Source of the DNA: Saccostrea cucullata
Taxonomy: Eukaryota
Length of the DNA: 64,000 nt
Direction: 5' to 3'
Assembly: GCF_032062105.1 (NCBI RefSeq)
Contig: NW_026938926.1
Span: 1-64,000 of the forward strand
Both the position numbers and the translations under genes were made by a program. Shown piece by piece: positions 1 to 38,104 of this stretch (position 1 is the stretch's first letter; each line of letters starts with the position of its first letter). The notes beneath the pieces are model-generated. The model saw only the letters and a list, made by a program, of their open reading frames with translations, was not told the DNA's origin and did not search any database.

Positions 1-1832
1 CTCCTGTTAAATTGCATGTGCATCACGATGAAACAGCTGGACATTAAATTTAAAAAACTTTCTTTAAAAACTTGTTTGTTTGTCCTTTTAAAAATGAACC
101 GATGCAAATCTTTTTAAAACTTCCAAATTATTAATTCCGGCAATTTCCCATCCTATCAACAACTTTTTTTATTTCAGAAAGTATGCCTTCAATCTTTTTC
201 AACACTGAAAATTTCCGACAAAAAAAATCGACCTACCTACCATGTAATTTTTTTTTAACCCGAATAGGGGAGGCAAAAATAATTTCATTTTAAACGGCCT
301 TACGGGAAGTTTCAGCCACCACTGGAAATCTTTAAAAAATACACCGTAATTGTGAAAATAAGATTAAGATAACATTATGGGAGATGGAAGTTTTTAATGA
401 ATAAAAAACCACATCAAATTACACCCAAGAATTGCTTGAGCATATAAATAAAACAACATCCCCTTGTTCTACTGGGATCGAGAGTTTCTCTGAAGGAGAC
501 GTTTTTACGTCGCATTTACTTTGTTGACTTTTGACGCGTCTTCTGACGTTACGTCATAATAGAGATAAGGGAGGTTTTTGCTTGGCGCGTCACATATGTG
601 TATTTTTGTTTATCATGATACTGCCCTGTTTGCTTCATCATTCAGCATTCGTTGGAGATGCACTAGAAACACAGCCGTCATCCGTCAACGTCGCGGTGCA
701 GTTACAGATGTCTTTCTATCAGGATTGTGCCATGAAGATGATGTTAGTTCGTCATTGTCAACCCCACCTCACAGAACCATGCTTGTCTTGTTACGCATGA
801 CATACCGCGGCGTTAATTCCTGCATTCAGCTTCGACATGGAGATATGACATGGAATACTATTTTAATGGATATTGGTCCATTGAATAATTGATTTCGCGT
901 GGCGTTGTGCATTTGCGCAATTTACCCAGTGCACAATATTTAGCCGATTTGGGGTCGCCACATTTGTTGTTGATTGTTTCGGAGATGACCCTGCGGCCGC
1001 TCCCAAATTTGTCATATGTCACCGCGACCAGATACGCCAAACTTCAAATAAATCCTTTAAATGAATGAAGCGTTATTTTATAGTAACACTGAGATAATAA
1101 ATGCTAATACTGCCATTCTCAGCATGTTGTCACTTTTAATAAATACCTAATACTGTATCAAACGAAGAAAACATTAACAGTTTATAAACAAATAAGATGA
1201 ATCAATTGAGAAAATAAATAGGCTGCAGAGAAAATCATAATCTTTAACAAAGTAACTTAGTAAACATGAAGAAAAACACGAAAGGCCATTTATGGCACTT
1301 CGGATTTGCAAAGAAATGTGTTGAATCCAAAAATAAATCGTGAAAAAGGCAAACCACAGACCCTTGGAAATCAATATCAAAGAAAGGATCAGGTAAAGAA
1401 AGGAAGTAAAGCATTCCCTGCATGTCACCAGTCAAACCCGTCGTGGACCTTTTCACTTGATTCGGTATCTTTAAAGAGGCTGGGGTGGCAACCATTTTCA
1501 GACTATTTCAATCTCCCTTAAGAGAAGAGCTCCATATAATGATATACAAAAATGATCAAATTTTAAAACTAAAATGTATGAATTTTTTCTTTGCCAAATG
1601 ATAGTTGACAGGTGAAGATACCGTATCTAAAAAATAAGTTAAATGTGGTGGTTAATTTGTGGTTAATTTGTTGCCTACCAGCCTCCTTAATGGATGAGTG
1701 TTTTAAAGAGTAATGCATATTTTTCCTGGTAAAATTTCAATACGTATTTGCAAATCAATTAAATAACAAGGTGCAATGAAAATATCGATCAACCATTTGT
1801 TGTCTTTTATAATCTAATAGATAATGCATTCA

Positions 1833-3363
1833 GCCTTGTCTACAACAAAGTCTTGACTGTATCTGTCTATGTCATCTGTGTTTATTTGCCTGCTTGCTCC
1901 TCATTTTTGGAATAACTTGCAGGTAAAATAGATATTTATTTTTCCTAAGTAACAAACCAGTCATTAAACCAAAAGCATAAAATATTCTACTGATTGTATA
2001 AATAAATGTATTATAAACATTCATTATAAAGAAGAAGAAGGACACTAAGCTAATGATGAAATATTATTTTATCACCAATTCTTAGCAAGAAAATGTAAAC
2101 CAATAACAGTGTAGCTTATTACTTCTAGATGAGATTCTACATGTCCATGTCATTGATTTTTTTTTCACTTATAAAATTTTTCCATAATCGTGCAAACTTG
2201 TCTCATGTGGATTAAAATTATGAAATAGGTAAAGACTTCAAAATATTCAAGTTAAAAAATCAATTTCATTTTGTTTCCTATGTAGAATTATAAATATCAG
2301 AATGTAATCATTTCTCAAATAAGAGTAATAACGTACGTGATTTTAATGAAAAAAATTCAAATTATTATTTTCATACTTTGAGACAAGTTTAGGAGTGATC
2401 AACATCTTCAAAAAGAAAAGAAATATATAGATAAATTCAAATTAGTCTAGTTGAGTGCTGAAGAGAATACAATGTTAGAAGCTCACCAGAACCAAAGTCC
2501 ATTGTACCGTCCACTAATCACAAAAAATTACATGTTTAATATGTTGAAAGAAATAAAAGCAAGTTGGTTATTAAAAACCTACTGAATCGTAAGTGTGTCA
2601 TATGGAATTCAAAATTGTTTTTATGAAGATATATACAATCATTATTGTTTTCAATGGAGATGAAAGAACATAACAAAACTTGCATTTTAAAATCAATATT
2701 AATTTCAGAACCAAAATTCCTTTAAATAAAATGCTTATTAACTAGAGGTCTCATTCGGGATCATTTAATTGAATTTATTGCACTGTAGAAAAGAAAAAGA
2801 TGAAAATTATAATAAGAAACTTGTTACTTGATATTTCCAAATGATATTTTATTTCTTTTTATTTTTTAAGATGGTTTTCATAATGTGCTTAATATATATA
2901 AAACCAAGAAGGAAACAGAGAAAGCAGGGTTTAAGCAGAGAAGATACGTCTGGAGATCCACTTTATGGATCCTGTGAGGACCCTTGTTATAGTACATTAA
3001 CACTATCTAGTTAGCACCCGATGTAATCAAAACGGATCTTCTGAAGATTTGAATCCCTATGGCTATACGTATGAGGGAGGGAAATGTGGCTGGAGTACAA
3101 GGAACGAACGACAATAATATTTATTTGGTGGATAAAGAAAGTGTACGAATGCATATAATCTCAACTCAAGGACAGTATGAAGACCCGTGGAGAAACGATT
3201 GTGATAACTCCCTTCTGCGTCACTCTTCACAAGTAGGTTTGACCTTATGCCAGTAGATGAATCTAACAGTGCTTTACGGGAAAAGAATATGGACCGTACG
3301 AACTGGCATCTAGAAAGTAAATGTGAAAGTCTTGATCAGGAGAAGTAACACGAAGATCCTATA
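1833..3363 (+). pseudogene. 3' exons of a MEGF/ced-1-like membrane receptor paralog (gene A): hydrophobic TM-like exon and Tyr-motif cytoplasmic-tail exon, frameshifted
   Basis: The exon at ~1833-1922 ends ...FACLLLIFGITCR|gt. The terminal exon (ag|2871 to ~3363: EDPCYSTL, NPYGY, NSLLRHSSQ) is homologous to the exon at 31414-31893 that lies downstream of the EGF-type exons of gene B. Stops and frameshifts are present. Confidence 0.55.
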
Positions 3364-4618
3364 AACGATGACACATGTAGGTCGTCTTATTAGTATATTA
3401 ACATAAGTAAATATTAAGCAAATCAATGAGTGTCCTCTCAATAGAAATCTATAAAATGATTTTTTTTTAAGTGAAGTATCTGCCTCACAGCAAAATTTAT
3501 GATGTTCCACTCGTATTTGCATAACTCTAAGAATTAAACTTAAAGCTACTTATATGGTGTCGCCGTTTTGTAGGCGTTAAAAGTTGTTTGAGTGGGTATA
3601 AAGAAAAATGATTCCCAGGACCTATCATAAATTTACTTTCAGGTAGGTCTACTTCATGCTATCAGATATGCTATATTTTCCGGAAAATGCAGCATTACAC
3701 ATATTAAATATAAAAGTTTAAGAATCACGCAATTAATACAGTATATATGTACATGTATTTCATGTTTATATCTATTTCAGAAAACCATATTCCAGTTTGC
3801 TAAATATTCAGACAATGAATAGATTGGCTCATATGTTAAAAATTGTAAGGTGTCAACTACGATACATACATGTACATATTGAAGTCAGTATTCAGTCATT
3901 TATTTAGACCTATGTTAGGAAATATCAGTAAGAGGAAGAAAAAACTAAATATACTTCAGTTATTCAACTTCCCCATCTAGATTTTTATAGCTGATAAGTG
4001 TGTCTGGTGGCGCAAATGTTTTGATATATGATTTATTATATAACGAATAAAGTCAAGTAGAACACTCAACGTTTTTTTGTTATCAAAAAATTGATGATAT
4101 CAAATGCAAAAGCAAGATAACGCCTTTATTTAAACAAATGATAAATTATAAAATTCCAAAGATGTGTTTATAAAAGTGAAAGTCTTCAAACAATCTTTAT
4201 TTTAATTGTCTATTTTCATTGTTTCTTAAATTAATATTAAAAATGTGGTCATTTGATAAAGTCAATCCAAGGATATATCGACTTCAAAGAAAAGGATCGA
4301 CTTTGTCTCCAGTCTATATGCTCTGCTATAAAGTTTATACTGTAGAAGTCTTAAATTTCAAGTGTCTAAAATTTCACGGTTTGTTAGAAAGTTACCTTTC
4401 ACGGTAGTTTCAATTTCGCAGAGAATCATTCATAAATATTCAGGTGCTATGCCTGTTTTTAGGAAGATATGAAGTGAAGTAATAAAAACGATGGTTTAAA
4501 GTTCGCGGAAAATTCTTAAATCGTGAACATAGTGAAATTAAAATTTCCGTAATGTTTTTCACTTCTACAGTATGTAGATCTACCTCATAACAGAGAGGGA
4601 GAGAATGAGAAATAATAA

Positions 4619-5653
4619 TGAAAACAAGCCGTAGTTAATTATAACTTTGACTTGTAAAACTTAACACAAGCTTTACTGTATTAAACAGGTAGCTTGTTAA
4701 ACTCCTAAACACTTGATTAAAACGGGACACAAGTCGTGGTCATTTATAACACTGACTTGTTAAACCTACGCAAGCTTTACTGTATTAAACGGATTCAGCT
4801 TGTAAATACTACGGGCCAAATACGATAAGTCCGGTAATCTTTATTAAGTTAAAAGTAAAGTGAAATTAAATTCCGAAATTCTCTAATGAAAAATTCTATG
4901 AAAAATTCGAAAGAAAAATTTACGTATCTAGAAAAATAAAATTACTGAATCTAAACAAAATAAAAATTGACATTCGTTGAATTAATCAACTTTAGTCATC
5001 ATAAAAGAGAAAGATAGCAAACGTATAACTTTTGTTACGTAGTTTGCCGTAAAATAAAAATTAAATAAATGTAGAGTAAAATTGTAAAATAAAATAATCC
5101 TAGAAAAATAAATTAATGAAAAGAACTACTCAGTCATAGACTGTTAAGTTCTAAAAATTACCGATCACGGACAATAGTATTTTACTATTTAATGTCCTTC
5201 ACGGTTAAATCCTATCCTAACTAAATAAATGAAAAATTAAATAAATTCCTAATTTAAATAAAAGATAGACAAAAATAAAAGTTAAAATAAAATCCTAACA
5301 AAAATCTACAAGCTCCGTAATACGGACCTACCAAATCAAAATAAGCAGAAGAGTGACTAGAATTTCTCAGCGTCTAAATTTTATATGACTCAAAGACAGA
5401 AAATGACGGAAAAAGACGGAATTATTAATTATGAAATTTCATTGGATTAGTAACTAATGATCAATTATATTGAACAATCTGATTGGTCAATAGTAAAACA
5501 TCACGACCTTTCACGTGAACAAGTGTTACCAAACATTCTATACAAATGCAAAATAATAATTTCTCACATATTATCAATTAAAACAAAATATGTTTCACAA
5601 CAAATAATTTAAACAAAACATATTAAACTCAAAACAATATTTAGTTTGTAACA
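4619..5653 (-). mobile_element. Probable solo LTR
   Basis: On the minus strand it starts TGTTACA and ends TTTTCA, with CCAAT boxes, a TATA box and AATAAA in LTR order, plus a short internal duplication. The flanking 4-mers (TGAT/TTAT) are only an imperfect TSD. Confidence 0.5.
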
Positions 5654-6553
5654 ATCACTATTGCACTTGTAATATAATTTGTATTTCCCGCGTTTTGTCC
5701 CTATGCTTATTATACCCATAAGTCCTTGCAAAATAGCTTAGCCGACCAGAACAATTGAGGCCTGGTCATTCCCGGCAGAGAAGCGTAGCTGCAGACACGT
5801 TTCTGATTCGAAGCAGCTAGTATATGTACATAGCAGCAGTGCATGCAATATTTTACTGGCACGGAGACAGGTCCGTGATAAGTATTACTTATGATATTAT
5901 TTGCTTTGTATATAGTTTTTTTTATGCAAATTTATTATTGATATACTTCTAGTTTTCTATTTCTGAACTTGGCCAGCTTGACCATTTACTCGTTGTTCAC
6001 TCAGGTGTGACGGTTAGCGAGAGTGTTCGAGTGGCTGTTGTATTATATCGATAACGTTTAAAGTTCTCATTGTTAAATGTTCGCTATTTTCTTGTACTCA
6101 GTTTTGTTACTTTGTGTAGAATATTTTGTCCATTTAAAATTTTGGTTTAAATGTCTGGACGGAAGTGAATGACCGGAAGTTGAAAGTAAGGTGTGGATAT
6201 TGGCAGTAATTGTTTTTGACTTGCTTAAACTGGTTACCATTATACTTAATACTTTTTGATTATTTTTATATTGACCATGAATAGCCAAACAAACATAGTG
6301 GTATTGCCAAACATATGTAGTGAAACATGTGACTTATTAATATGCATCATTGTAGCGTCGAAGATATTGGTACTGGATATTGGGTACATGCACTAAGCTG
6401 AGGGGATCGTCTGATCGTGGTGACACAGCGAAAGGTTCCTGGACTAAAGCCCGGAAGGAGGCTGTGTGTGTGATCAAGACTCGGTGATGGTGGACAGACA
6501 CAGAATAACAAGTCAAACCACGTAACGTGATAGTTCGTTAGATGAACACTAGT

Positions 6554-6644
6554 CAGGTTGGGCACACCCCCCCCCATTTGGTTGATCCACTCCCGTTTAG
6601 TGGTCTATAGCCTAAATGGTATACATACATAACTGACCAAATGG
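6554..6644 (+). repeat. Left TIR (~90 bp) of the Academ-like element
   Basis: Imperfect reverse complement of 13735-13823; the outer ~50 bp are nearly identical. Confidence 0.92.
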
Positions 6645-6735
6645 TGGTCTTTTTTCTTCGCGCCAATATTGCATTAAATTAAGAGAAAGGCGCATTTGCA
6701 CGAGCATCAGGAGATGATCTCGAACTCACCCTTGG

Positions 6736-6812
6736 ACTTATATAAGGCGATTCGCCCAACATTTCATGCGGCAATTTCGATAGCGGAGGGAGAGAAAAGT
6801 ACGTAGAAGTAA
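6736..6812 (+). promoter_or_regulatory. Putative TATA promoter and non-coding first exon of the transposase gene
   Basis: TATATAA at ~6739, a GTAAGT donor at ~6809, and an acceptor tttag at 7126 just before the ATG at 7129. Confidence 0.45.
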
Positions 6813-7128
6813 GTAGTACTGTTATTTTGACAACTTAATGCTATATAATTTAAATATACCTCTTAAATGTTGAAAAATTTTCCTGTGAGCTCTTTCTACA
6901 ACTTTCATACTTTACAAATCAAAGCTTCTTATTGATCATGATCATTCAGAACCAATGAAAAGTCCCGTTATAATTAATTACAGCAGCTAAACGTTTGTAC
7001 GGCACATCATTAGAGTACAAAATACATAGATTTTTTTTCTTGGCCATTACAGTATAATGTATATATAGAGAGATTTTAATCAGAGAATTTTTACAAATAT
7101 TCTCTATTGTTGTATAATTTTTTTAGAT

Positions 7129-10100
7129 ATGCCATTTCCCAAGAAATGTAGCATTAAAACCCATGCAACAATTTGCAAGGACTCTGAACAAGGGACCCTT
7201 TTTAGAGTTAGGAAAAAAAGTGAGAAGTGAGCTTATTGAAAAATTAAAGCAAGAGGGGGAACTTAGCCCCAAAGGAACCTACATCTGTGAAAGATGTATT
7301 AAGCATGCTGAGGTAAATTATAAATTAATTTTCCATATTGTATCACTCACACAGGAATGAAAAGGGATAAAAGGAGAGGGGGGGGGGTATTGTTATTTTC
7401 AAATGATTTTCATCCATGCATATATAGTAAAATGTTACATGAAAACGAATTCATGTGAATTAAAAAACAAATTATATACATAAACATCCAGAAATTAAAA
7501 GATACGCCCTCCTTTGCTGTTTTCCTTAAACGATTTGTTTTGTTTGAAAAAAGACTACGACCATGCAATTTTCTCACAGGCAAGAATTGTCCCTAAAAGA
7601 AAAAAAAACACCATTGTTGCAGAGATGGTACAAAATATTGAGAATGGTGTCATCGAAGAAGATGAATTGGAGATGATTATGTGTGCAATTGGTTCGTTTA
7701 TTAATTTTTTTAATCATGTAAAAAAAAAAATGATTACGTTCAGGCACGTAGCATCGTTTTTGAAAGTGGGGGGGGGGGGGGGGGGCAACCTTAGAAAATT
7801 TTTTTACTTGCCGGTAGCCCCCCCCCCCCCCCAAAAAGAAGGAAAATTACTCAAACTCGAAAATCCTATTTCGTGTGTGTGTGTGGGGGGGGGGGGGGGG
7901 GGGTAGTGACCAAATTTTTTCAAGGCAAACTTCCTTTCACTGCCAATTTTTTCCTAAATTTACTTGCTATGTATATACTGTGGTAACAAGTGGGGGGCAA
8001 ACCACCTTTTCAATATACATTTTCTATATTAATCTATAGTAAAGGTAATGCTATCGGAAAAAATGGGGGGCAGCCCCCCCCCCCCCCCCCCGATACTACG
8101 TGCCTGACGTTTGGGTCGGCTGTACATCGTACCTTTCATTGAAATAATTACAGGGAAGGCATATTAATAAATTAATTGCATGAAGTCGCGCCATTTTTTT
8201 CTTTTTCACAGGAAGAAGAGAATCTTTAAAAGTTTTTGATGACAGTTTAGTTGCCGGTTCAATTTATAAAAAAGATGACATGTTAAAACATTTTGATCCA
8301 GCTCGTAAGATTTTTATGCATTTCTAATATTTTTTTTTTAAATTAAATTCATAAATAATATTAAAGTTTTCAAAAATAATTTTAATTAATTATTTTTTGG
8401 AACCTCTTCGTTTTATTTTCATAGGCTACATGTCTGAGAGGAATGGTCCTCTTCTTGCCTTTTTTAAAGGCTTGATGCAGGAGGGGGATTTTTATCAGAA
8501 GGAAAAAGCAGTAGTAATTAGCAGTGCAGTGGACAGCGTTTACTACCTGGTAAACACCAAATTCGTTGCTCCACTTGCATTTGCTAAATCCCTTCTTATA
8601 TACACTAAGACAGGTGGGTTTTTTTTATTATTAATTTTACAATCACGCAATTAAATATTTTCTTAATAAATTTTTAAACATTTTGTTATGATTTTATTAA
8701 ATAAAAAATATTTTTTTATATCCATCTGTATTTATAATTTATATTTATTTATTTACTAATATTGAATTGTTTATGTTATTAGGAAGCAAAGAAGGAGTAA
8801 ATGTTGCTAGTGCTGCATCACCAAGCGGAAGTTATACATCTATACTAAACTGGCTAAAAGCCAACAGCCAAGAGAAAATAAAGATCCCCGATAATTCGGA
8901 TGTTATATCTTTTTTTGATAACAACCAGGTCTTTAAAAATTTCTTTTACTTCAATTTAATTTTTTCAAATTATTTTTTTTTACACGTGTCATTATTTTTA
9001 TTGCGACTTTTAAATTTTATCTTTAAAAAGGTGATTGGTAGAAAATGGCGGGTCAAGAACGATTTCAAGGCGGAGTCATCCGTTATCACTTCTGTGGCTC
9101 ATATGCAGCCCAGAAGTGATATTCAGAGAAACATAGAGCTTGCGCCTTCAAAGTGGCAGAGTTTCCATGTACAGGCGAAGAAGGACTCTCTTGAAAAGTT
9201 GAAAGCGCAAGAAATATTATTTGAAAAAGAGTTCAGTAAATTAAGGTAAAAACTGAAGAGAGAGAGAGAGAGAGATTTTCAAAATTTACTCGTTTATAAT
9301 TTCAAACTTTTATTTCAGACATGGATTTATTTCTAAGAGAATCAATGAGATAAATCAAACAACAATCCGAAGAAGATGGATGGAAGGATCATGTTGACAA
9401 GAAAAAAGACCATCCACGGGAAATAGATCCCCCAAACGAGAGGTTAACGAGGATATATATTTGAAACACAATCGATTGTAAAAGAAATTATATTTTCAAT
9501 AAATGTTTTTATTATTATTATTCAGTTCACTTTCCAGGTGCGAATCCAGAATTTTTTTTCCACTCAAATAAAATACAACCCAGGAATTTCTTGACAAGCA
9601 AAAAAGAAAATAAAACTTAACTCGTTTAAACTTCAAAAACCCATTTCGAAGGGGGGTGGGACTTCTTATACTTAAAAAATTTGACCTTTCATACCAATTT
9701 AAGACAAATTTTCGTTAGCCATGGGGTCTGCGTTTTGCCGAGGGGGTCCATGGTATTTTTTCTTGCTTTAGTGTATAAATTTAATAACCTTGCCAATTCC
9801 TGGGGGGTCAGGTTCAGGGTTCATGCCTTCCATTTACCACCACCCCACCCATTCACCTCCAATCTACAAAATGTAAAACAGACTAAGATTGACACAAGTT
9901 ATATAAATCTAAAGATCAATTTCATTATTTTTAGATACACGTTCATTCCTAGCTGCCATGAAGCAGGGCCAAGCAAGGTTTTTGCTGGAGAACCCATTTT
10001 TGAGAACCCTTGTTCGTATGAGGCTGTAGAGAAGGTTGTATAGTATTCCTTAATTCATATAAATACAAAAAATAATAAATAAATAAATAAAAAAAAATTA

Positions 10101-12171
10101 TATGATGCATAAAATGTTCTATCTGGGAACAGGTGCTTGACCATCTCCTGGAGGAGGCAGAGGTCGGTACGACACGACATTGGACGGCAGTAGGATGTGA
10201 CGGCCTCCCCTACGTTCTCGCCTCGAGGATCATGGAGGAGTTGTATATTTGCCCTACTTGTCGTATCCAATATGACCAAGATGAGTTCATTAACCATATT
10301 GAGACTTCAAAACATGCGAATGATTTGGAGGAAGGAAGGAAATATAGGGATATTTTAATGCTAGCAGGTGTTACACTAATTTCAATTATAATGTGCAAAA
10401 ATCATCATCAATTTTGTTTAATAAAATCAAAATTTGTGCAAATTCTACATTTTTTTTAGGACATGGCCACTTTGAAATTAATATGACGAAGGCCCTTTTC
10501 AAACTCCTTTGGGACGTGTGCTTAATGGAGCTCGCAAAAATGCTGGGCTTCAAGAGTCCGAAGGCCCTTGCAGCATGCCAGGCTGCCCATGGTATAGAAT
10601 TTATAAACTAAAAAAATTTAAAATTGTATCATATTTTTTGTAAAAAAAAATACATAAATTAAAATGCTCCATAAGCGTCGGAATCAAATTGAAAGTGGGG
10701 TTTGGGGGCTAAACCAACAAAAAAAGTAAACCCTTATTTTCATGCCTATATTATGTATATATTTGTAAAAAAAAAAAAAAAAAAAAGGTGGGGAGAGGCT
10801 TAGCCCCCCCCCCCCCTCTTCCGACGCCTATGTGCTCTTCGCAAAACATAGATTTATTTTATATTGCAGATCACCATAAAAGCTGGCAAATTCTGGAAAT
10901 ATTCCTTTTTGCTATGTCTGGTGAGCTCCTTGTGCCCTATGTTCGTCAGGCATTGGAAAAAAAAGAAACGCCTTCCGTTGAAGGGTTTTTAGCCAGCAAC
11001 AAGACCCCTAATGCAGCTTTGATGGCGAAGATTGTTTTTGACCACAGTCTAGCACTTCATGTGTTTAGAGCAGGGGTACGACGCAACAACACAGAGGTCA
11101 TTCTTTGTAGCAGGTCTAAATTTTCCCCATTATTTTTTGGCTTAAACATGCCATTTTACATGGAGGCTTTCGTCAGAGACTCTTTAATTCGGATACAGTG
11201 TCCTCCTGCAGTCAACGAATTTATGAGAAAAAACGAGACGTACACTGTAACTGGGAACGAGAGCAAAGGCGAAGGGGGGGACTTTGTTCTGGAGAACCTC
11301 AACCGCAAAAGCAAAAGCTTCATGCCCCCCGGCCTGCCAACCGACGAGAAATGGCTCACCATAAGCAGAAACATCGACAAATTAGACGAGGTAAAAAATA
11401 TTTATATACACATCATGCACATAAATCGTAATGACGTAGGATTGTTTTAGAAGGGGGCAGATGCAGAGAACAAAATTAAAAGGGAGGGGGTGCCCTAACT
11501 CAGAAATCTTTTTTCTAATGTACATTTTCTATAACAAAAGGTTATGTATCATGGAAAAAAAGTATCCCCCCATTCAACATGCATAAATCCATTGCATCTA
11601 AGATTAAATGAATTTATTTAGAAACAGTTTAAATATACTTTATACTGTATATAGTAATTTTGTTCATATTTTTCAGATCAGACTGAACATGCAGACAATT
11701 ATGGGGCTGACAGATAAAGACTCAGAATATACATACGCATACGACATTAGTGAAGAAATCTCAGCATTTAGACACATAATTAGGGAACGTAAATATTTAC
11801 AAAAACAATCACTCACTACACTCTCAAATAAACCTTTAGACAGTGCATTCTTACATTTTGCAGAACATGCACAAGAAAACAAAGACTCGCATTACACACA
11901 CATACAAACACACGCACTCTCATCTAGACTTAAACACACACCTATATTTATTTTTCAAGAACACAGAGAAAAGCACACCAACATCGCAAACAAAACAAAA
12001 GCTGAAATATCTACACACATTGAGACACAGTTGGACACATTGAAATCACATACACTAAGCCAGAAATGGAAAAAAGTGAAAAACTTGAAAAAATCTGTTC
12101 TTTTAGAATTTCTTAAAGAACTAAATGAAATTAAGGATGCTGAAAGCCAGAGCGAGTCAGATGTAGAATAA
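7129..12171 (+). CDS. Academ-superfamily-like DDE transposase, 12 coding exons, roughly 850 aa, a few frameshifts in this copy
   Basis: Approximate GT-AG exons: 7129-7312, 7580-7691, 8212-8304, 8425-8613, 8783-8928, 9031-9245, 9319-9442, 9935-10033, 10133-10367, 10460-10591, 10869-11390, 11677-12171. Motifs in order: ISFFDNNQ (D1), EPIFENPCS, AVGCDGLPY (D2), CPTC-x11-H-x5-H, GHGHFEINM, FRAGVRRNN...PLFFG...Y, GDFVLENLNRKSK (E). This matches the Academ pattern D..D..GxxH..RxxN..DxxxExxNxxxK. Confidence 0.8.
7741..8106. mobile_element. MITE (366 bp) in transposase intron 2, left arm only
   Basis: 16-bp TIRs CAGGCACGTAGCATCG / CGATACTACGTGCCTG. TSD ACGTT at 7736-7740 and 8107-8111. Empty site with a single ACGTT at ~54345 in the right arm. 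Confidence 0.92.
10670..10832. mobile_element. MITE in transposase intron 10
   Basis: TIRs CATAAGCGTCGGAA / TTCCGACGCCTATG and 5-bp TSD TGCTC. Same family as 63609-63961; mirrored at ~51556-51711. Confidence 0.85.
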
Positions 12172-12235
12172 AGGTATGAATATCTATAATTTTTGCAAAT
12201 TACTCGCTTGAGAAAAAAAATTAATTAGCAAGCAT

Positions 12236-13307
12236 TTATTTCTTAACACCTAAATGTTTAGGACAAAAAAATTTTAAATTTTTCAGAGCATTTTTTCGGA
12301 AGGCAGTAACCCCCATGCACCAGGCATGCCTCCAGAAGGAGCAATCCTTTACTTCACAACCCACCCACAGCTTGCTCTCCGATAGAGACTCTCCACAGAT
12401 CCGACAGCAAGACTCGTCAGCCGAATCTCCTCCGAAGGTTGATTCTGTCGTTTGGGTGCTGGCCTCTTTAAAAGTTGGCGATGAAGCCGATGTAAGATGT
12501 GCAGAAGACGTAGAGGGAGAAGATGGCAAAGTAGGCGATGCAGGGGCAGATGGAGAAGCAGAGGATGACGCACAGGACATTGATGTTTCAATAGTCGCGA
12601 CCTTGTGTACATAATTATGTTATATTATTATTAATTTGCATTGTTGTACATGTATATAAATTTAATATTTATTTAAATCAAATGTATAGATGACAGAGTT
12701 TTTCACAGTTGTACCTTTTTGAAATTTGGACTGGAATATTCATACACTATTCCTGAAGCAGGTGCCCTCATTGTCAGTGAAACCTCTGCTGAAGTTGCTG
12801 TATATATATCTTGAACCTGTGCCATGTTAAAAATCTTTTAAAACTATGACACCTTTTAAGAATGTACATATTTGTTTTTTAATGATATGATTTTTTAAAC
12901 TTTGATATAACTCTTTAAAAACTTTGAATGCATGTTCATAAATATATGCTTTTTTTTGTTTTTTGTTTGTTTGTTTGTTTGTTTTTTTTTTACATTTTCA
13001 ATGATTTTTATGATTCCATTACCATGATTATTAAAGAGTTATTAATCAAAATTTCGGTGCGTTTTTTTAATTAGGCGGTTAGTAACAAAGCTGGAATTAA
13101 AACAAAAAGTGTTTCTGATCGTGTAATTATGTAATATAAGATGTCTTGAACATGCTTTTGAATGAATACACACCTTTTCAAGAAGTGTATCCTTTCGTTT
13201 GTTGAAGGAGCGTATCATCTTTTTCTGGTCTGTTAATATTTTGGTGGGGTCCTTCTTTTTTTAATTTGTCTTAAAATGGTTACTTTGCCACCTCTTGTAG
13301 TTTTTTT
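12236..13307 (-). CDS. Transposon accessory gene: MADS-box-like domain, Ser/Pro-rich linker, PHD finger (3 exons)
   Basis: Exons 13307-13174, 12816-12715 and 12601-12236 have GT-AG ends and phase-0 joins. Product: KKTTRGGKVTILRQIK...MIRSFNKRKDTLLEK|VQDIYTATSAEVSLTMRAPASGIVYEYSSPNFKK|VATIETSMSC...CCRICGESLSESKLWVGCEVKDCSFWRHAWCMGV...FFCPKH. This copy has a 1-nt deletion in the A-run at ~13256-13262. The start codon is not resolved. Confidence 0.8.
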
Positions 13308-13397
13308 CTACACAATATGAAAAAAATGAATAGAGAATGCATTTATTGAAAATTTACACAAACGGCGCTCCGTATTAAAGTTTGAGCTTTCGACCGA

Positions 13398-13428
13398 AGT
13401 TTATATAGATCAAGAGATTTGATTGGCT
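13398..13428 (-). promoter_or_regulatory. Putative CCAAT and TATA promoter of the MADS-PHD gene
   Basis: Minus-strand AGCCAAT is followed ~20 bp later by CTATATAAAC, ~95 bp upstream of the first coding exon, firing inward from the right end of the element. Confidence 0.5.
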
Positions 13429-13734
13429 ACAATTGTTTTGAAGTAACCCGGATAATTGGAATCGAAAGTAGAATGTTTGGAGAAGGGGCTCCTCATGTGA
13501 ATTTTGAAGCATTTGGATTAATTGTAAGGTAATATTATGCAAAAATAATGGCCATAATCAGGATTTTACTTAGCATACCTGAAATTTGCACACCCAGGCG
13601 CACAAATTTCCACATGCAATGTTCCATTTTTTTATGTTTAAAGACACGAGGAACCTAAATTACTTACCACTCCTGTCATCTTAGTGCGCCGAGTTAAAAA
13701 GCAGGTGTAAATCGAAAAACACGAAAAGTAACTC

Positions 13735-13823
13735 CCATTTGGTCAGTTAACAATGTATACGATTTGGTTGATTGACCACCAAACGGGAGTGGATCAACCA
13801 AATGGGGGCGTGTGCCCAACCTG
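13735..13823 (-). repeat. Right TIR (~90 bp) of the Academ-like element
   Basis: Ends ...GTGCCCAACCTG and is followed by the CTAGT TSD. Confidence 0.92.
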
Positions 13824-14679
13824 CTAGTGGCAAACCTGACATGCATGGTTTTATGTATATGATGATCATGATGATGATGGTGATGATGACGATGAGGATG
13901 ATGATCGATGATACGGAGACGATCACTACATTGGGAAACGTTTGGCATTAATTCAAAAATTGAGACATTGATTGATAACTGAGATATATACCCGGGGTAG
14001 ATGTGTCGTTGATTGTTAATTGGTTACCAAGATAATTGTTTTTTTTTGGTTAACTTTTTAATAGTGAGCAAGGGGTGTGGATCAGAGTGCGGTAGATGGT
14101 GTGAGGTTTTTGCTATTATTATTATTTTTTTTTGTAAATAAATTTATTAAACTTATTGAACTTGTGTGATTCTTGGAGAAAGCCAGCTTGACCACGTGAC
14201 ATAATTCATCTCAAAATACATTCATTCGTAACCATTTATACTGAATAAATTTATCGACTATACAATCAATAGGAGAACAATTTATCGAATAGATTAACAC
14301 GTTTCTAAACCGGAAGTACATCGTATAGAAGAGTTCCAAAACTGTCAAACATGTGCCAAAAGAAGTTTAGACTGTTTACAGGTACCAAATCAATTAAGTA
14401 ACACTAAACAAACAACAATCACATACTTTTACGCACAGTAATAAGTTGCTATATATACGTAAGTTATAATCTACAAATGACCCACTTTACAAATCTCCTG
14501 TCAAACTCTAATTCAGTTCGAATTATCTCTGTCATGTTTACATTGCCAACATACTATGATACTACAATTTACTCTTGATTTCAAGTATTTATAAATACAA
14601 TTACATAACTTAGGTACAACTTTGCGAACAGCACATTCATAGTAAAACAAAATAAAACTTCTTGAATAAACAAACTTCA

Positions 14680-14923
14680 TCAACCCGCTCCAAATCACTA
14701 TAAAGCATGATAGCATATTACAGACATTGACTCTATTTGATAGAAAAATCAACCCGCTCCAAGCTCACACAATTACAGTAAAGTATTACAGTCATTGACT
14801 CAGCATGAATAAACACTATATTGTGGATTAAATAATCAACCCGCTCCAAGCTCACACAATTACAGTAAAATATTACAGTCATTGACTCAGCATGAATAAA
14901 CACTATATTGTGGATTAAATAAT
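14680..14923. repeat. Short tandem duplication (88-bp unit x2 plus a diverged partial unit)
   Basis: CAACCCGCTCCAA at 14681, 14750 and 14838; the last two units are nearly identical. Mirrored at ~47490-47731. Confidence 0.85.
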
Positions 14924-15635
14924 GAATGTCATATACCCTAACTACATGACATAAAAATTAAAAGGGGGGGGGGGGGTCACATACACTACAATTGGATAAT
15001 TTTATAAACCACATCTATTAAAAATCTTTTGTACAAATGATATCCATGAGTTTTTCATTTCTCTTTATCATGTTGTTTATGTAAATACATATATACTATT
15101 CTAGACAATTTTGTTTTCTTTTTCATTCACAAGTTTTGCCCAATATTTTTATCATTCTTGAGTAAATATTTATGTGTAATGGAAACCTTCCCAGTTTCTT
15201 TATAAATCATATAACTTGGGAGTGCTACTTTTCAAATTCATATATGTTTTAAATAATTAAAATGTACTCGTTCAATAATATCGATATGTGACTCGCCATG
15301 AGATTTTTGGCCCAAATGCGGCAAAACGTAATAATGAAAAAAACGTCACAATCAACGTTTACAAAAAAGCGTGAATTTCGCGCACTTGTTAAAATAATTG
15401 CAGGATGAATTTAAATTGTGTAATGTTTAAAGACTTTTTTATATAAACAAAAATAATAAGAAAATCGATCTTATTTTGATTTAAGTATTATTGAAAGTTT
15501 TCGAGGGAAAAAAATCGAGATTATTTAGAGTTATTCCCCGTAAGACTAACTCTTCTTTAGTTTCCGAGTTGTTGGTGTAAACAATCATGGCGTCTCGAGA
15601 AATGAGGGAGATTTAAACTGAATAGAATCGCCGGA

Positions 15636-18600
15636 ATGGAAAGCTGCAGCCAACTAAGCCAGTCAAGTGCAGTTTCTAATGCAAGTACAATCCCCCCGGA
15701 AATAGTAGAAAACGAAGATGAAGAATTTGTAAACGAAATAAATCGAGTGAATGACCTATATTTGGAACTTGTCAAACACATCGGATGTCGACCCGGAATA
15801 TCACTCTGATAACGCAGAGAGCTCTGACGAAAATGAAAGCGATGGAGAAATAGGAGATCGAGAAAATTTAGTACCAATAAGAGCAGAGTGAGGTAGATAG
15901 AATGAAATTGACCAATTTCAAAAGTTTAATTCTAAAACATGCGGTTGTTCTCGACTCTACGGAAAACCATGTAGTGAGGTCGTCGATTTAGAATCTTTGC
16001 TTGAATACAGAAACACGTGCCTGGAAATGAACAAGGAGGAACTAGATATGATGATCAAAGTGCAATTATTTCACCATCGGCGAAATGACAAAGTTACTAG
16101 TGCAAAGAAACATAGATCAAAAGAAAGGGAGAGAATCAGACAAGAATATTTTTTTAATGGACATCAAGTGTGTAGAGAAACATTTGCGTTTTGCCATGGA
16201 GTTTATAGGAAGACGGTGGACGCGCTTGCTCGTTCCCTTGATAAGGATGGACTCGCTCCTAGAATTCATGGAAACATTGGTAAACATCCAAAGCATGCCC
16301 TCACTGTAAATGATGTTCAATCTGTAAAAGATTTTCTAACATCTTATGGAAACAAGTTAGGTTTACCGTTACCAGGAAGACTGCCAAACTAAAGAGATAG
16401 TAGAGCTAAAGTGTTGCACTCTGATAAGACCAAGGCTGATATACATCAGGACTATTTGTTAGCTGCAGAGAGTCTACATTTGAGAAAGATATGTTTGTCA
16501 GAATTTAAAAGAGTTTGGCTGAATATATGTCCACATGTTCTAATTAGCAAGCCTTCAACAGACCTATGTTATAAATGCCAATCCTATGCGAATATCCTGG
16601 TTCATGGTGGCATGATGACAGAAGAGGAAAAGGAGCAACATCTTGAGAAATACACAGCTCATGTTGAAAAATCAAAGATGCAGAGGGATTATTACAGAAG
16701 GCAATGTGAAGTTTCTAAAACTAGCTTTTCTGCTCTTCCAAATGAGAGAAAAACCAGAGGTAACAATTTATTATATGATTCAAGTAATATTGTTTGAAAT
16801 TAGTTAATCATTTATGCATTAGTTCTGTTAAATTAGTGATTTTTCTTAATCAATTGGCTATTGATATTTTCCCTAGGTCAGCCCATCTGTTCTTTGGAGG
16901 GAACTCAACATTACAGTTTTGATTATGCCCAGCAAATACATTATCCACATTATGCGCAACAGGTTGGTCCTTTGTTCTTCAAAACCCCACGGAAATGCCA
17001 GTGTTTTGGAATCGGTTCAGAGGGTTCAGGTAATTTTTTAGAACGTCAAACACAAGACTACAATAGTCTAATTGATTTTTTAGCATTACTCTTTTAGTTC
17101 AATGATAGAAAATAAAATTTATAGATTCATGTACAAGTTTACTACTACTAGTCTAACAAATTTAATTTATAAAACAGACTAGGCAGTGCATTTAATTGGC
17201 TAATACATGCAACCTGTAAATTTAGAATTATATTTTAGAAATGCACCTTTTCATAAAAAAAAATTGAAGTAAAAGAATAATTAACTTTTTCAGTGCAAAC
17301 ATTTTTTTGTGAACTTTTATCCAGGATCACAGATATTTTACTTGATTGATGAGTCTCAGCATTCTGGAAAGGGGGCCAACTCTGTTGCCAGTATGATTCA
17401 CCACCATTTTCAACATAAAGGTTATGGAGAAATGAATTTACAACTCCATATGGACAACTGCACTGGTCAAAATAAAAACAACACTGTTATTGGGTATGTA
17501 TTTCCAATCCAACTGTCTATATTTTAACTACCATTTGTGTGGATGGTATTTTTGCAAAATTAATACAATAGGTGTCTTCATGTCAAATACATCCATGTTT
17601 ACATGTGGTACATGTAATGAAATACACTGGCAAAATTATTTTCAATTCATTTGTTCTCTTTGATTAGTTTAGTTCTGATAATGAAGTTCTTTAGAAGTGC
17701 ATTTAGAGATCTTGTCTCTTTTGAATTTTATTTTAAAAGAATGTCTTGTAGATATGGGATGTGGCGAGTTATGACCGGCAGACATATGACCATTGAGTTT
17801 TCTCTGATGGAGGCAGGCCACACAAAGTTTCATCCCGACTGGCATTTTGGGCTCTGGAAGGTGAAATGGCGAGGAACAACTGCAGAGAATCTTGAGGAAG
17901 TGGCCAAATCCGTTGCTCATTCATCTAGGAATAACCATAAATTCCCCACTTGATAGGATCCCCAGTATCCAGTCATTTTCTATGACTGGAGCACGTTTCT
18001 CAAGCAGTACTTCAAGCCAATACCTCAACTCAAGCAGTATCATCATTTTCGGTATGCATTATATTGCCTGTGTTTTTTAGCAATTAATTTATTGGAGGTT
18101 GAGTTATCACAGAACAACAAATGCACAGAGAGGCATAGATAAGATCTTCAAGTATACTGTAGACATACTTTTTTCCACGCTGTCATAATTCTGTGGAATC
18201 TTGATTTTTGTTTAATCTGCAGGTAGAAAATCATGTGGATTTCTTAACTGTCCCTATATATACCTTACATGTTTATTAAGTATGCTTGGACAAATTTCCG
18301 TGAAAAATTTGTGACCGCGTACATACCGTAAATTAATACCATACGAAAAAAGTACTTCTATGGTATTATATTTTTTTTTCATTTTATCTAATTTGGTCTG
18401 AATTTCATGACTTTAGTAAAACCAGCAAATTTCAGACCAAAACATCAAAATTAATTTAGTATTTTTCTTTATACCTGATCATCTTATTAAATATATATAT
18501 TTGGTGTTTGTTTGTCATATATTCTTTTATTTTCTTATGCTTGTATAATTTATCCCTCAATTAAAAATCTTTATGTTGTCAAATTAAAAAAAATTACATG

Positions 18601-19217
18601 AACATGTATACAAAAAAAAAAAAAAATCCCCAAAAGCAAACACCAAATACATCAGATTTAAGCCCATGTTGACAAATGCAAATTTTAAGTATAAGCATGA
18701 TAAGGTTATGAATTCTGTTAGCATTGAATTTTGAAAATTTTTGTATACATGTATGCTGCTAAAAACAGAACTGAAAAGAAATTCTTAACTAATTCTAACT
18801 GCCATGACTGTGCTCCTTCAATATCTTTTGCATTAAGCTGTCGATAAATATATTTTAAAAAAAACAATATATGTTGGAAGATCTAACATCTTTGACTTTT
18901 GCAGCATGACACATGAACATCCTGGAGTAGTCCATCTACGAAAGTATGCTGGAGATGAAGAAATTACTGTCAACATCCTGAAACACAAAGATTTCAGGTT
19001 TCCAAACATGGATGCCTCTCTTCCAACTGTTATTAAAGCATGTGGCCTTGACGCACAGCGACAGTGGTATTTATACGACGAGGTGGCCCCATACTGTGCC
19101 AGTCATGAGGCATGTCCCCGCCCAAGTGTACCAAAACCATCAGCCATAAAAGTTGAACAGAAAGTGAAATTAGGAAAGAGAAAATGTGCAAATGAACATT
19201 GTAACAAATCAATGTAA
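15636..19217 (+). pseudogene. Sola transposase, 5 exons, disrupted in this copy
   Basis: Approximate exons 15636-16759, 16877-17029, 17325-17493, 17752-18051, 18905-19217. Motifs HYSFDYAQQ, DNCTGQNKN and GHTKFHPD. Frameshifts near 15765, 15880 and 17945 and a stop at 16390, relative to the right-arm copy. Confidence 0.85.
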
Positions 19218-19399
19218 TTTACATGCTGTCATGGATGTTAAGAGTTTGATTTTATCTAGTTCTTAAAACTGTTATATTCTGTTGTATTAATTTGATCAAA
19301 CAATATGTGTTTCAGAATGAAATGACATCTATTTCAAATTGTGTTACTTCATTGCTTTTATGTAACTTTAAAGTCGCAGAAATCACCAATATCAGATAA

Positions 19400-19809
19400 A
19401 GCAAGATGTGTTCATGAAACACTATGTACCCAGTGGTCCCTAAGTTTGAAAAAACTATTTTTAGTATATAGGTCACAATCAAGGTGACAAGGTCATTAAC
19501 CTTGGTGTCATTTGAAAAAACTTAATTTAGTGGAGTACGCATAGAAAGTATGAAGTTTCTATCTCGTATTGTTAAAGATGTATTGCAAAGGTTAAAAAAG
19601 ACTATTTTTAGCAAATACAAGTAGGTCACAGTCAAGGTCACAAGGTCATTGGCCTTGGTGTCATTTGAAAGAGCTTGGTTACTGGAATATGCATACCAAA
19701 TATGAGGTTTCTATCTCTCATGGTTCAAAAGTTATGGCAAAGGTTAACATTTAAAGATAGACAGGACAAAAACAGTATGCGCTCCTGATCTACCGATCCG
19801 GGCGCATAA
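19400..19809. mobile_element. Small Helentron/HINE-like non-autonomous element inside the Sola 3' region
   Basis: Two ~150-bp units containing ggtcacaaggtcattgaccttggtgtcatttgaaa and a terminal hairpin-like gatc...gatc. Related sequence lies at ~33890-34125; mirrored at ~42603-43012. Confidence 0.5.
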
Positions 19810-20598
19810 CAACCAATTAGTAAAGTCCAATTTTCTTGACAATGAATAGGGATATCAAAGAAAAAACAACAGATAGTTGTTACTGGGGGTCATCTCTACT
19901 AGATAGTATAAAAATCTCATTTTCTCTCAGGTACCTCATTTGGGCCAAAATTCTCATGGCTTGTCATATTTTCATAACCCTATTTTTCACAGCCATATAA
20001 CAATACTGGTAAAACTACTTTATCAAACAAATTCAATTGACATTCGAAGGGGAGATTATATGCTTAATTTTACTATCACACCATACATCGCCTTTGGTGC
20101 TTGTTCGCTTAGGTGTTTTCTTGCTTTACACAACTAGCCTGTACGAGAAAATAAAATCCTCAAATAATTCAAATCCTTGACTACTTCTATGACACTGTAT
20201 CTTGTTTCTTTATATTCACACATAATTTTCATTTTTCACAATATTTGCAAAATTCATTTAATGCTCTCTAAAGATCTTCAGCAGTTTCCTCAAGAATTAC
20301 AGTATCATCGGCATAAAATAAAACAAACAGTTTCATTTTGAAGCCAAAACGCATTGCAGCTCGTTTCAGTTTTTTTTTCTTTTCATTTCGACATTTCCTT
20401 TGTTCAATACAGCATATTAAAACAATGTTTTTATTTTGTTTTATAAAAAACAATGACATCATTTTATGTTCAACTTAAGATTAGAAAATGTAAAATTTTG
20501 CATTCTAAAATATTGATCGATTAGACGCTTTTTAGGTGCTTTTTAATGTGTTTGTCTTTTTCCATTCTAACAATATACACTTTAAAACGTGACGTTTA

Positions 20599-21376
20599 AA
20601 CCTCAGTCACATTTCCAAAAACGACTAACGGCCGACGGGTTTTGAAGCAAAAATGGCAGTCGTCAGTTCATCGGCCGTTGTCTTGGCCGATTTTGACCTA
20701 TTTTTTTGTCGGCCGACCAATATCGTGTCCATCGGTCCAAGTTATAATTTTTCATGCGTCGGTGGCCGATTTCTTCAAGTGCAGTTATCCGTCGACCAAA
20801 CTTCGATCATCGTCCAACCATCGGCTGTCAGTTTATTAAGTCGGTCGTCCGTCGTTGGACAATAAAGGTGTTGAAAATTTCGACCGACGGTTAAAATCAA
20901 ACTGTAGCTCAGAGCTCGATGATTGTGAATATTTAACCTATTAATGATACATAACACAAACAAAATTTTGATGCATGGATTGATATAATTTTTTTGAAAG
21001 GAAATAACATAAATAATTAATCCGTAAGATATAGAGAAAAATCTTAAGCAGTCTTTGCTGCTTAGATATGCACCATTTGTCGTTTTTATGCAATTCCATA
21101 CAAATTTTGCATTGAGTCACAATTTTATAAGTTTCTGCCACTTTGCCTTGCTAACATAACTCACGTCACCTATCTGAATATAGATCTGTGAAAAATATTG
21201 CTGATTTCTAAAGAAAAAAAAGTTTTTGTGTTATTTATCCAAGTCATCCCTGTTCCTAGGAAATAATGTGACTGCTCCGTGTCGCCCGATACTGTGTCGG
21301 CCGATCCTGTTCTTTCAGCTGACAAGACCAGAAAAATTTAAGTCGCGCGACCATCGGCTTAAATGTGACCTAGGCA
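20599..21376. mobile_element. PIF/Harbinger-like non-autonomous element
   Basis: Imperfect TIRs (CCTCAGTCACATTT / AAATGTGACCTAGG), TTA on both flanks, and repeated CGGCCGA/TCGG subterminal motifs. Confidence 0.55.
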
Positions 21377-21424
21377 TTAGTTGTGACGCGGAGACACCCT
21401 TTATGTTTGAATCCAATTAAACAG

Positions 21425-21425
<1 letters not shown>

Positions 21426-21470
<45 letters not shown>

Positions 21471-21552
21471 CATTTTGTCCGTCGTCCGTCCGTCTGTCCG
21501 TCCGTCTGTCTGTCTGTCTGTCTGTCCGTCCGTCCGTCTGTAAACTTTTCAC

Positions 21553-21589
<37 letters not shown>

Positions 21590-22706
21590 TGACCAAACTT
21601 GGTACGAAGCATCCTTGGTTGAAGGGGATTTTAAATTGTGAAAATGAAGGGCCAAGTCCCCTCACAAGGGGAGATAATCAAGAAAAGACAAAAATAGGGT
21701 GGGGTCATTAAAAAATCTTCTTCTCAAGAACCACTGGGCCAATAAAGCTGAAACTTATGTGGAAGCATCCTGGGGTAGTGTAGATTTTAAATCGTTCAAA
21801 CCATGACCCCCGGGGGTTGGGCGGGGCCACAATGGGGAATCAAAGTTTTACATAGAAATATATAGGAAAAATCTTTAAAAATCTTCTTCTCAAGAACCAC
21901 TGGGCCAGAAAAGCTGAAACTTATATGGAAGCACCCTGGGTAGTGTTAGGTTCTAAATTGTACAAATCATGACCCCCGGGGATAGGGCGGGGCCACAATG
22001 GGGAATCAAAGTTTTACATAGAAATATATAGGAAAAATCTTTAAAAATCTTCTTCTCAAGAACCACTGGTCCAGAAAAGCTGAAACTTATGTAGAAGCAC
22101 CCTGGGGTAGTGTAGATTGTAAATTGTTCAAATCATGACCCCCGGGGGAAGGGCGGGGCCACAATGGGGAATCATAGAAATATATAAGAAAAAATCTTTG
22201 AAAATCTTCTTGTCAAGAACCACTGGGCCAGGAAAGATGAAACTCATGTGGAATCATCCTCAGGTAGTGTAGATTCAAGTTTGTTCAAATCATGACCCCC
22301 GGGGGTAGGGCGGGGCCACAATGGGAAATCAAAGTACTACATAGAAATATATAGGGAAAAATCTTTGAAAATCCTCTTCTCATGAATCACTGGGCCAGAA
22401 AAACTGAAACTTATGTTGAAGCACCCTGGGATAGTGTAGATTGTAAATTTTTCAAATCATGACCACCGGGGGTAGGGTGGGGTCACAATGGGGAATCAAA
22501 GTTTTATATAGAAATATATAAGAAAAATCTTTTAAAATCTTCTTCTCAAAAACCACTGGGCCAGAAAAGCTGAAACTTATGTGGAAGCTTCCTGGGGTAG
22601 TGTAGATATCAAATTGTTTAAATTATTATCATTGTGGTAGGGTGGGGTCACAATATGTATTACAAGGGGGAAATCTGGTTAAAAAAAAAAACAGAATGGT
22701 CAAAGA

Positions 22707-22743
<37 letters not shown>
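21426..22743 (+). mobile_element. Helentron-associated element (HINE/Helitron-N type) carrying about six ~166-bp satellite monomers (Cg170-like)
   Basis: 5' TTTTAGCTCACCTGAG with subterminal inverted repeat, (GTCC/GTCT)n microsatellite, monomers starting aaaatcttcttctcaagaaccactgggcc at ~166-bp spacing, and 3' CAGGTGAGCGATGTGGCCCATGGGCCTCTTGTT hairpin, inserted in a T-run. Confidence 0.9.
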
Positions 22744-22744
<1 letters not shown>

Positions 22745-37500: not shown

Positions 37501-38104
37501 CCTTATAATATGGATTTACACTGTGACTGTTTAGTGAATACTGGCACTGAAAGTACTCCGATGTATTGCGGAAGTTGCAAACCCATTTTGTAATTTTCAT
37601 GTAGTCGCCCATGTGACAGAAAACAACAAAGTATACCATGATTACGGACTGACTCTTAAAAATATGAAGATTAAATAATATATCAGTAATACATCAATTC
37701 AAATATAAAGTTGAATATTTGTTTCTTTCTTTATACTTATAAGAATTCCAAACACACGTTCCTAATGATGATAGTTAAATGTAATTGTAGTCAATTAAAA
37801 GGTTTCAGATAAGAAGAAGAAAATCCCAATGATACAATTTAGGGGTATATGTAATTTGCATTCTATACTTATAAACATTTTACGGTAAATCATACAGTTA
37901 TGTTATATGAAATACATGTAATATATTTTCATTCAATGCATTTTATTTTCAAACATATACAAACAAGTGGGTTTTTTTTCTAATTCTGTTACCCCATGCA
38001 CAAAAATAGGTAATTTTAATGAGGAATATTTTTTTTTTAAGTTTAAAGTTTTTTTTTATTGTGGATTATAAATTTAAGCAAAAAAAAAAGTTTTATATTA
38101 TCTT

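What the first reader, a model, noticed from the sequence alone, without database searches (positions are those of the whole stretch)
7050..13300. The two copies share one insertion site, yet their interiors differ mainly at synonymous sites
The element ends, TSD, flanks and the neighbouring Sola copies are nearly identical between arms, but the transposon interior is clearly more diverged. In 11941-12060 versus its mirror I count 6 substitutions in 120 bp, 5 of them synonymous. Neutral drift after duplication would not give that bias. Inference: one interior was overwritten from another functional family member (gene conversion or gap repair). This implies a diverse family under purifying selection elsewhere in the genome.
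Basis: partly seen in the sequence, partly recalled or inferred. Interest (0 to 1): 0.7.

Follow-up and report, generated by a model that had tools for sequence, protein, structure and literature searches.

The report
Transposon interior swapped from distant copy
Two mirror-image copies of one jumping-gene insertion in an oyster-type genome share their ends, but one carries the inside of a related copy that sits elsewhere, likely copied in by DNA repair (an assembly error is almost as likely), and the element has an unusual second gene with a PHD finger and a likely MADS transcription-factor domain.

Summary
Copies A (6554-13823) and B share one site and 5-bp duplication. They differ by 6.3% inside, 0.65% at the right end and 0.5% in the neighbouring Sola-like element. 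The donor-type copy asked for exists: insertion D at another site, present as two contig ends. Where D overlaps, A matches D inside 6735-12901 (61 vs 11 informative sites, plus a shared 366-bp MITE) and B at the ends (57 vs 6). Spliced A-type contigs occur in three other samples, so the interior is a real lineage. Whether A is a real recombinant is open: D's interior is missing from the assembly and both switch points lie about a read length from an assembly landmark. Odds: ectopic conversion or gap repair 0.5, assembly chimera 0.4. Such replacement is known (Alu). The element is the more unusual part: a DDE transposon with CAG ends, 5-bp duplications and a convergent MADS-like/PHD gene. It fails Academ, hAT5 and RAG-like tests and my searches found no paper on it, but this scan had already noted it in other genomes.

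The parts
6554..13823 (+). DNA transposon, copy A (7270 bp), CAGG...CCTG ends
   Evidence: inverted repeat and 5-bp duplication; a contig of run X4 joins 6504 to 13824, the empty site
6549..6553 (.). left target duplication CTAGT
   Evidence: same in B and C
13824..13828 (.). right target duplication CTAGT
   Evidence: same in B and C
6554..6644 (+). left terminal inverted repeat, about 90 bp
   Evidence: 86% to the right repeat
13735..13823 (-). right terminal inverted repeat
6735..12901 (.). tract of D-type sequence in copy A; shown against D only at 6735-8118 and 12784-12901, inferred between
   Evidence: no gap over 118 bp between A-specific sites outside the MITE
7129..12171 (+). transposase gene, 12 exons, about 850 codons, DDE fold; single frame breaks in A near 7209 and 9352
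   Evidence: GT-AG exon model and indel list; homologue model matches integrase, Hermes and P-element folds; spliced contigs
12236..13307 (-). second gene, convergent: MADS-like exons 13174-13307 and 12715-12816, PHD exon 12236-12601; 1-bp break near 13258; start not located
   Evidence: PHD 24.7 bits, cut-off 24; exon 1 is the top hit of 2141 frames to a profile of this genome's SRF-TF hits, E 8e-4
7741..8106 (.). intronic MITE with CAGG ends and a 5-bp duplication ACGTT, present in A and D, absent in B and C
48585..55533 (-). copy B in the mirror arm; stop near the end of the PHD and 19-bp deletion in the last transposase exon (both shared with copy C)
1..26130 (+). arm A of the inverted duplication
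36294..62115 (-). arm B of the inverted duplication
31973..33094 (.). internally deleted TTAA-flanked transposon at the centre of the duplication; possible misjoin at 32276/32277

Best explanation
Copy A is a mosaic with B-type ends and the interior of a second lineage (D) of the same transposon, likely made in the animal by ectopic gene conversion or gap repair. Shown: A, B and a third copy C share one insertion site; D is a separate insertion; B and D differ by 5-8% along their length outside the terminal repeat; A switches from B-like to D-like near 6730 and back near 12900. Inferred: after one insertion was duplicated with its flanks, a break or gap inside copy A was repaired by synthesis from D or a close relative, copying about 6.2 kb and keeping about 180 bp and 920 bp of the old ends. 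The synonymous bias was then inherited, not made at this locus: it records purifying selection on two transposing lineages before they met here, likely in separate host populations or at low copy number.
For: D's two ends (C19686:1-1569, C9639:1-999) carry the same duplication ATGAT, and its flanks are contiguous in 7 of 7 other copies of the host repeat. Informative sites: inside the tract 61 side with D and 11 with B; at the ends 6 and 57 (Fisher p 8e-20, boundaries chosen after seeing the data). A and D are identical over 520 of 520 sites at 7215-7735, where B differs at 39, and share the MITE. A is not a plain copy of D: 8 D-only sites at 6735-7214 alternate with A=D sites within 5-17 bp, which a vote among B-type and D-type reads would not give. 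A 366-bp insertion only 1.2 kb from the B-type flank is not something short-read polishing adds (inference). Spliced contigs from 3 samples of 2 studies differ from A by 0-6 letters per 150-430 bases. Both branches have synonymous excess against outgroup copies: 26 vs 9 and 11 vs 5. The Sola-like neighbour in arm A is not replaced by its dispersed copies. Replacement of one element by another subfamily at the same site is documented for Alu (PMC6598467, parts 1-2 of 4 read).
Against: D's interior (8118-12784) is in no contig that the searches found, and both D contigs begin inside the element. The right switch lies 117 bp from the start of C9639 and the left switch about 180 bp from the flank, both near a short-read length. 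Arm A starts at a contig end and has clustered differences that look like consensus errors, 6.5 per kb in 1-3700. The window's centre joins pieces that match two other contigs, one at 100% over 1584 bp. Three copies of one site is more than a diploid holds without a real duplication. Four dispersed copies of a sister family show no such mosaic. No contig from another sample spans either switch.
Confidence: 0.5

Rival explanations
1. Assembly chimera: the assembler routed reads of D's interior between the flanks of the A/B/C site and left D broken; polishing then set the switch points. Both lineages are real, the recombinant is not.
For: D's interior is unassembled and its contigs break inside the element; switch points 117 bp from a D contig start and about 180 bp from the flank; error-like clusters in arm A; suspect join at 32276/32277; the last 520 non-MITE sites of C19686 are identical to A.
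Against: 8 D-only sites interleaved with A=D sites need a second D allele; A stays D-type over 1.4 kb where D has its own contig; the neighbour is not swapped; a real identical 6-kb repeat would also break D's contigs (inference).
Confidence: 0.4
2. The B/C ancestor, not A, was overwritten from an unsampled third lineage, and D's right end is a separate exchange.
For: In 12902-13823 five sites are B-only and one is A-only; run X2 holds a further version about 5-8% from A.
Against: Needs two events; B-D distance is even along the element (4.9, 7.5, 8.5, 6.7%), as expected of two unbroken lineages; no B-type donor was found.
Confidence: 0.06
3. A and B are old alleles or paralogues of a domesticated gene pair under purifying selection, with flanks homogenised later.
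For: Introns, splicing and dN/dS of 0.14 fit a working gene.
Against: Intact terminal repeats and duplication, an empty site in X4, a near-identical copy at another site, stops and deletions in B and C.
Confidence: 0.04

Closest known systems
Nonallelic gene conversion between transposable elements; Alu replacement at an orthologous site (PMC6598467, parts 1-2 of 4 read)
   Same: One site holds sequence of a different subfamily; mosaic of diagnostic sites; donor elsewhere
   Different: Here a 6.2-kb tract in a two-gene DNA transposon, between copies about 6% apart; not confirmed on single molecules
P-element gap repair and replacement in Drosophila
   Same: Repair of a break at one element from an ectopic element
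   Different: Here about 180 and 920 bp of the old ends are kept, more than an excision leaves (recalled)
Academ superfamily (PMC10045372 passages; link to DUF6589 recalled and in earlier scan notes; PMC7165386 not held)
   Same: Weak DUF6589 similarity, DDE fold with a helical insertion, terminal repeats
   Different: 5-bp duplication instead of 3-4 or 9-10; no nuclease or helicase found; MADS-like/PHD second gene
RAG-like and Transib transposons (search listings only; features recalled)
   Same: 5-bp duplication, two convergent genes, PHD in the second; RAG1 among weak fold matches
   Different: CAG ends, no RAG1 core Pfam match, no kelch repeats, MADS-like domain instead
hAT5 (PMC12730594 passages)
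   Same: 5-bp duplication
   Different: hAT5 lies inside the Blackjack lineage of hAT; no hAT family matched 24 homologues

Membership tests
Nonallelic conversion / element replacement | Recipient and its sister share the insertion site | tested here: met
   same CTAGT duplication and flanks in A, B, C
Nonallelic conversion / element replacement | A copy at another site is closer to the tract than the sister is | tested here: met
   A-D 1.9, 0, 2.6% vs A-B 3.4, 7.5, 6.0% in the three tract blocks that D covers, 1110 sites of about 6170
Nonallelic conversion / element replacement | Nearest neighbour switches back outside the tract | tested here: met
   A-B 0.6 and 0.7% vs A-D 2.2 and 6.2% at the ends
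Nonallelic conversion / element replacement | Mosaic exists on single molecules | not testable with these tools
   no listed run holds half of the words; no contig spans a switch
DDE cut-and-paste transposon | Terminal repeats, target duplication, empty site, RNase H-like core | tested here: met
   homologue P0010 model pLDDT 85, Hermes Z 10.1, rmsd 7.4, 293 aligned; P element Z 9.8, rmsd 5.1, 305 aligned; SIV integrase Z 10.5, rmsd 3.8, 130 aligned
Academ | 3-4 bp (AcademX) or 9-10 bp (AcademH) duplication | tested here: not met
   5 bp at A/B/C, at D, and at 6 of 21 contig stretches scanned that showed both ends with a duplication; lengths from PMC10045372
Academ | Accessory nuclease or helicase | tested here: not met
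   no such Pfam match in 102 of 109 listed frames from 4 elements; short exons could be missed, but copy A leaves little room
Academ | Academ-type transposase | tested here: inconclusive
   11 of 24 homologues match DUF6589 at E up to 0.1, best 2.8e-6; the scores printed (19.3, 22.9 bits) are under the cut-off of 27; no Academ reference sequences on hand
hAT5 | 5-bp duplication | tested here: met
hAT5 | hAT-type transposase | tested here: inconclusive
   no hAT family among matches of 24 homologues; Hermes is a fold match only; no hAT5 sequences on hand
RAG-like / Transib | CAC termini (recalled) | tested here: not met
   CAGG in 6 of 7 elements printed, CAGT in 1
RAG-like / Transib | RAG2-like kelch plus PHD partner (recalled) | tested here: not met
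   PHD yes, kelch no; SRF-TF instead
MADS-box (SRF-TF, PF00319) | Pfam score over the cut-off | tested here: inconclusive
   window exons of 29 and 34 residues give no Pfam match; relatives pass: 30.2 bits in one 525-residue frame with a PHD at 20.8 bits; own profile E 8e-4

The most novel reading that the evidence does not exclude
An unnamed lineage of animal DDE transposons, distinct from Academ, hAT5 and RAG-like elements, carries a MADS-box gene captured from genomic SRF (same intron position) and fused to a PHD finger; its low-copy lineages stay under purifying selection and can refill decayed copies at old sites by long ectopic repair.
Probability: 0.3. Interest if true: 0.7.

Novelty: new variant of a known kind. 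Interest (0 to 1): 0.5.

Why it matters
If real, the swap is a clean case of a 6-kb replacement between DNA transposon lineages: a decayed copy gains the expressed type without a new insertion, and dating by copy divergence misleads. In vertebrates DNA transposons were reported to evolve neutrally within genomes (PMC7070016, passages), so a ratio of 0.14 between lineages 6% apart points to separate host histories or low copy number. If it is an artefact, it shows that haplotype-rich assemblies can fake conversion. Independently, a transposon that carries a MADS-like/PHD gene facing its transposase offers a testable parallel to the RAG1-RAG2 layout.

Tried and rejected
Uniform divergence and dN/dS near 1: rejected. 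A-type interior as polishing noise: rejected, spliced contigs of other samples match it. Pure short-read conversion of a B-type backbone: unlikely because of the MITE and the 1.4 kb where D has its own contig. C8110 as donor: rejected, it shares the flanks and is 99% like B. No RNA holder on record was listed; X1, X4 are guessed RNA and X7 is unlabelled. No contig covered 12901-13484 in the four runs, so no switch and no second-gene transcript could be tested. Terminal-repeat pattern in metagenome contigs: 0 matches. Foldseek against PDB: no match at E 0.001; RAG1 and P element lead the weak rows. SRF-type CC(A/T)6GG boxes in the first 200 bp of the ends: 1 of 7 elements; copy A has four shorter CC(A/T)4GG boxes (shuffle mean 0.10); inconclusive. 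Mosaicism in 4 sister-family copies: none, 7 of 9 informative sites give one grouping. Sister-family dN/dS: 13 close pairs, 12 with a value, 0.15-1.08, noisy through frame breaks. Papers: DUF6589 with transposase, 0 papers; searches for a MADS-bearing animal transposon gave no such title in the listings (listings only). The AcademH paper was not held; Repbase Reports and supplements were not seen, so an entry there cannot be excluded. PMC6004678 gave no passage; PMC10799480 and PMC10294476 passages did not mention DUF6589 or this layout. No complex was predicted.

Full report
Setting. The window is the start of an 87,878-base contig in a 1.17-Gb assembly of 23,869 contigs. A homologue search labelled the window's own protein as from an oyster, Saccostrea cucullata. 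Bases 1-26130 and 62115-36294 form an inverted duplication of about 95% identity. A third copy of the arm, C, lies on contig C8110 with the same flanks; of 25,525 ungapped columns 677 are A-only, 114 B-only and 95 C-only.

The element. It runs from 6554 to 13823, has terminal repeats of about 90 bp beginning CAGG and a 5-bp duplication CTAGT. A contig of run X4 joins 6504 to 13824, the empty site in the host repeat. A 12-exon gene on the plus strand encodes about 850 residues. A model of homologue P0010 (mean pLDDT 85) aligns with integrases, Hermes (Z 10.1, rmsd 7.4, 293 aligned) and P-element transposase (Z 9.8, rmsd 5.1, 305 aligned). A convergent gene on the minus strand ends in a PHD finger (24.7 bits, cut-off 24).

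The observation. Over whole genes dN/dS is 0.14 (834 codons, p 1e-24) and 0.31 (195 codons, p 0.009). The interior differs by 6.3%, the right end by 0.65%, the Sola-like neighbour region by 0.5%. Some flank blocks differ by 3-6%, but mostly as clusters with indels; isolated substitutions are about three times denser inside the tract. Introns carry more differences than exons (170 vs 121).

The donor-type copy. A search with the right end found C9639 and C19686. C19686:1-1569 is a left end and C9639:1-999 a right end; both carry the duplication ATGAT, and their flanks are contiguous in 7 of 7 other copies of the repeat they interrupt. This insertion D shares A's intronic MITE, which B and C lack. 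B and D differ by 2.8% in the first 180 bp and 4.9-8.5% elsewhere. A is B-like at 6554-6734 and 12902-13823 and D-like between: 61 vs 11 informative sites inside, 6 vs 57 outside (boundaries set after seeing the data). D covers only 1110 sites of the tract; for the rest, A-specific sites are never more than 118 bp apart outside the MITE. One event, A receiving a D-type interior, explains this most simply.

Both lineages are real. Spliced contigs from X1, X4 (one study) and X7 (another) differ from A by 0-6 letters per piece and include the 19 bases that B and C lack. At 11946, 12462 and 12495 they carry B's letter, so those sites are private to A or D. Run X2 holds a further version about 5-8% from A, right end included. 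Against outgroup copies both branches show synonymous excess, 26 vs 9 and 11 vs 5. In second-gene exon 1, where A is B-like, D-only codon changes are 4 synonymous and 2 conservative. The bias therefore belongs to the two lineages. PMC7070016 (passages) reports neutral evolution of vertebrate DNA transposons within genomes and purifying selection across transfers, so separate host histories or low copy number are likely here (inference).

Real or assembled. For real: 8 D-only sites alternate with A=D sites within a few bases, so A is not simply D's reads; the MITE sits 1.2 kb from a B-type flank; the neighbour is not swapped. For artefact: D's interior was found in no contig; the switches lie 117 bp from the start of C9639 and about 180 bp from the flank; arm A looks thinly supported near the contig end; the window's centre joins a piece like C8110 to a piece 100% identical to the end of C10319 over 1584 bp. 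No contig spans a switch. I put real conversion at 0.5 and chimera at 0.4.

The family. The largest exon has 146 matches in the genome among 150 candidates scored. Six of 21 fetched stretches show CAG ends with a 5-bp duplication. Of 16 SRF-TF matches in the genome, 11 pass the cut-off; 4 of these, and 2 below it, lie 1-4 kb from a convergent transposase match. On C13325 one 525-residue frame holds SRF-TF (30.2 bits) and a PHD (20.8 bits) inside a bounded element. The window's exon 1 and its mirror are the two best of 2141 frames against a profile of five such hits (E 8e-4, 2e-3), exon 2 is weak (E 0.33), and the intron falls where it does in the genome's SRF-like gene. The role of this protein is untested; a helper that binds element ends or chromatin is a guess.

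Comparison. The swap works like known nonallelic conversion between elements (PMC6598467, parts 1-2 of 4). The element fails two Academ features and two RAG-like features and shares only the duplication length with hAT5. My five paper searches listed nothing on it; Repbase was not searchable. This scan had already noted the MADS-PHD element in other genomes; I reached that reading before looking.

Verdict. Observation confirmed, donor-type copy found, cause undecided between biology and assembly. Interest 0.5, carried about equally by the well-marked mosaic and by the unusual element.

Noticed in passing
window 12171-12853: A contig of X1 splices 12171 to 12285 (GT-AG on the plus strand) and runs on to 12712, so the transposase 3' UTR likely reads antisense through the PHD exon and an intron of the second gene.
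   Followed up: partly
window 13174 / L211, L213 (C4807): The intron in the second gene's MADS-like region is at the same codon as in the genome's SRF-like gene, which suggests capture from genomic DNA.
   Followed up: partly
window 31973-33094; C8110:61694-68705; C10319:765-7801: A TTAA-flanked, Kolobok-like element (name recalled) is 7 kb on two other contigs and 1.1 kb here; the window joins flanks that belong to different contigs.
   Followed up: partly
window 7741-8106: Very abundant MITE with CAGG ends and a 5-bp duplication (depth 24,361 in X2); it may be moved by this transposase family.
   Followed up: no
L230:3948-7220 (C16634), C18125, C3299: Intronless relatives of 940-1140 residues have an N-terminal cysteine-rich region with a weak RAG1_imp_bd match (E 5e-4), like Chapaev and RAG1 N-termini (recalled).
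   Followed up: no
window 15448, 15765, 17675, 17949-17953: In the Sola-like neighbour, B and C share clustered changes where A matches the dispersed copies, so not all clusters are errors in A.
   Followed up: partly
window 21700-22650 and 39725-40680: Tandem array of about 165 bp in both arms, with copies on other contigs.
   Followed up: no
L215 (C19744:54097-54243): A divergent SRF-TF match over the cut-off with no transposase match listed nearby.
   Followed up: no
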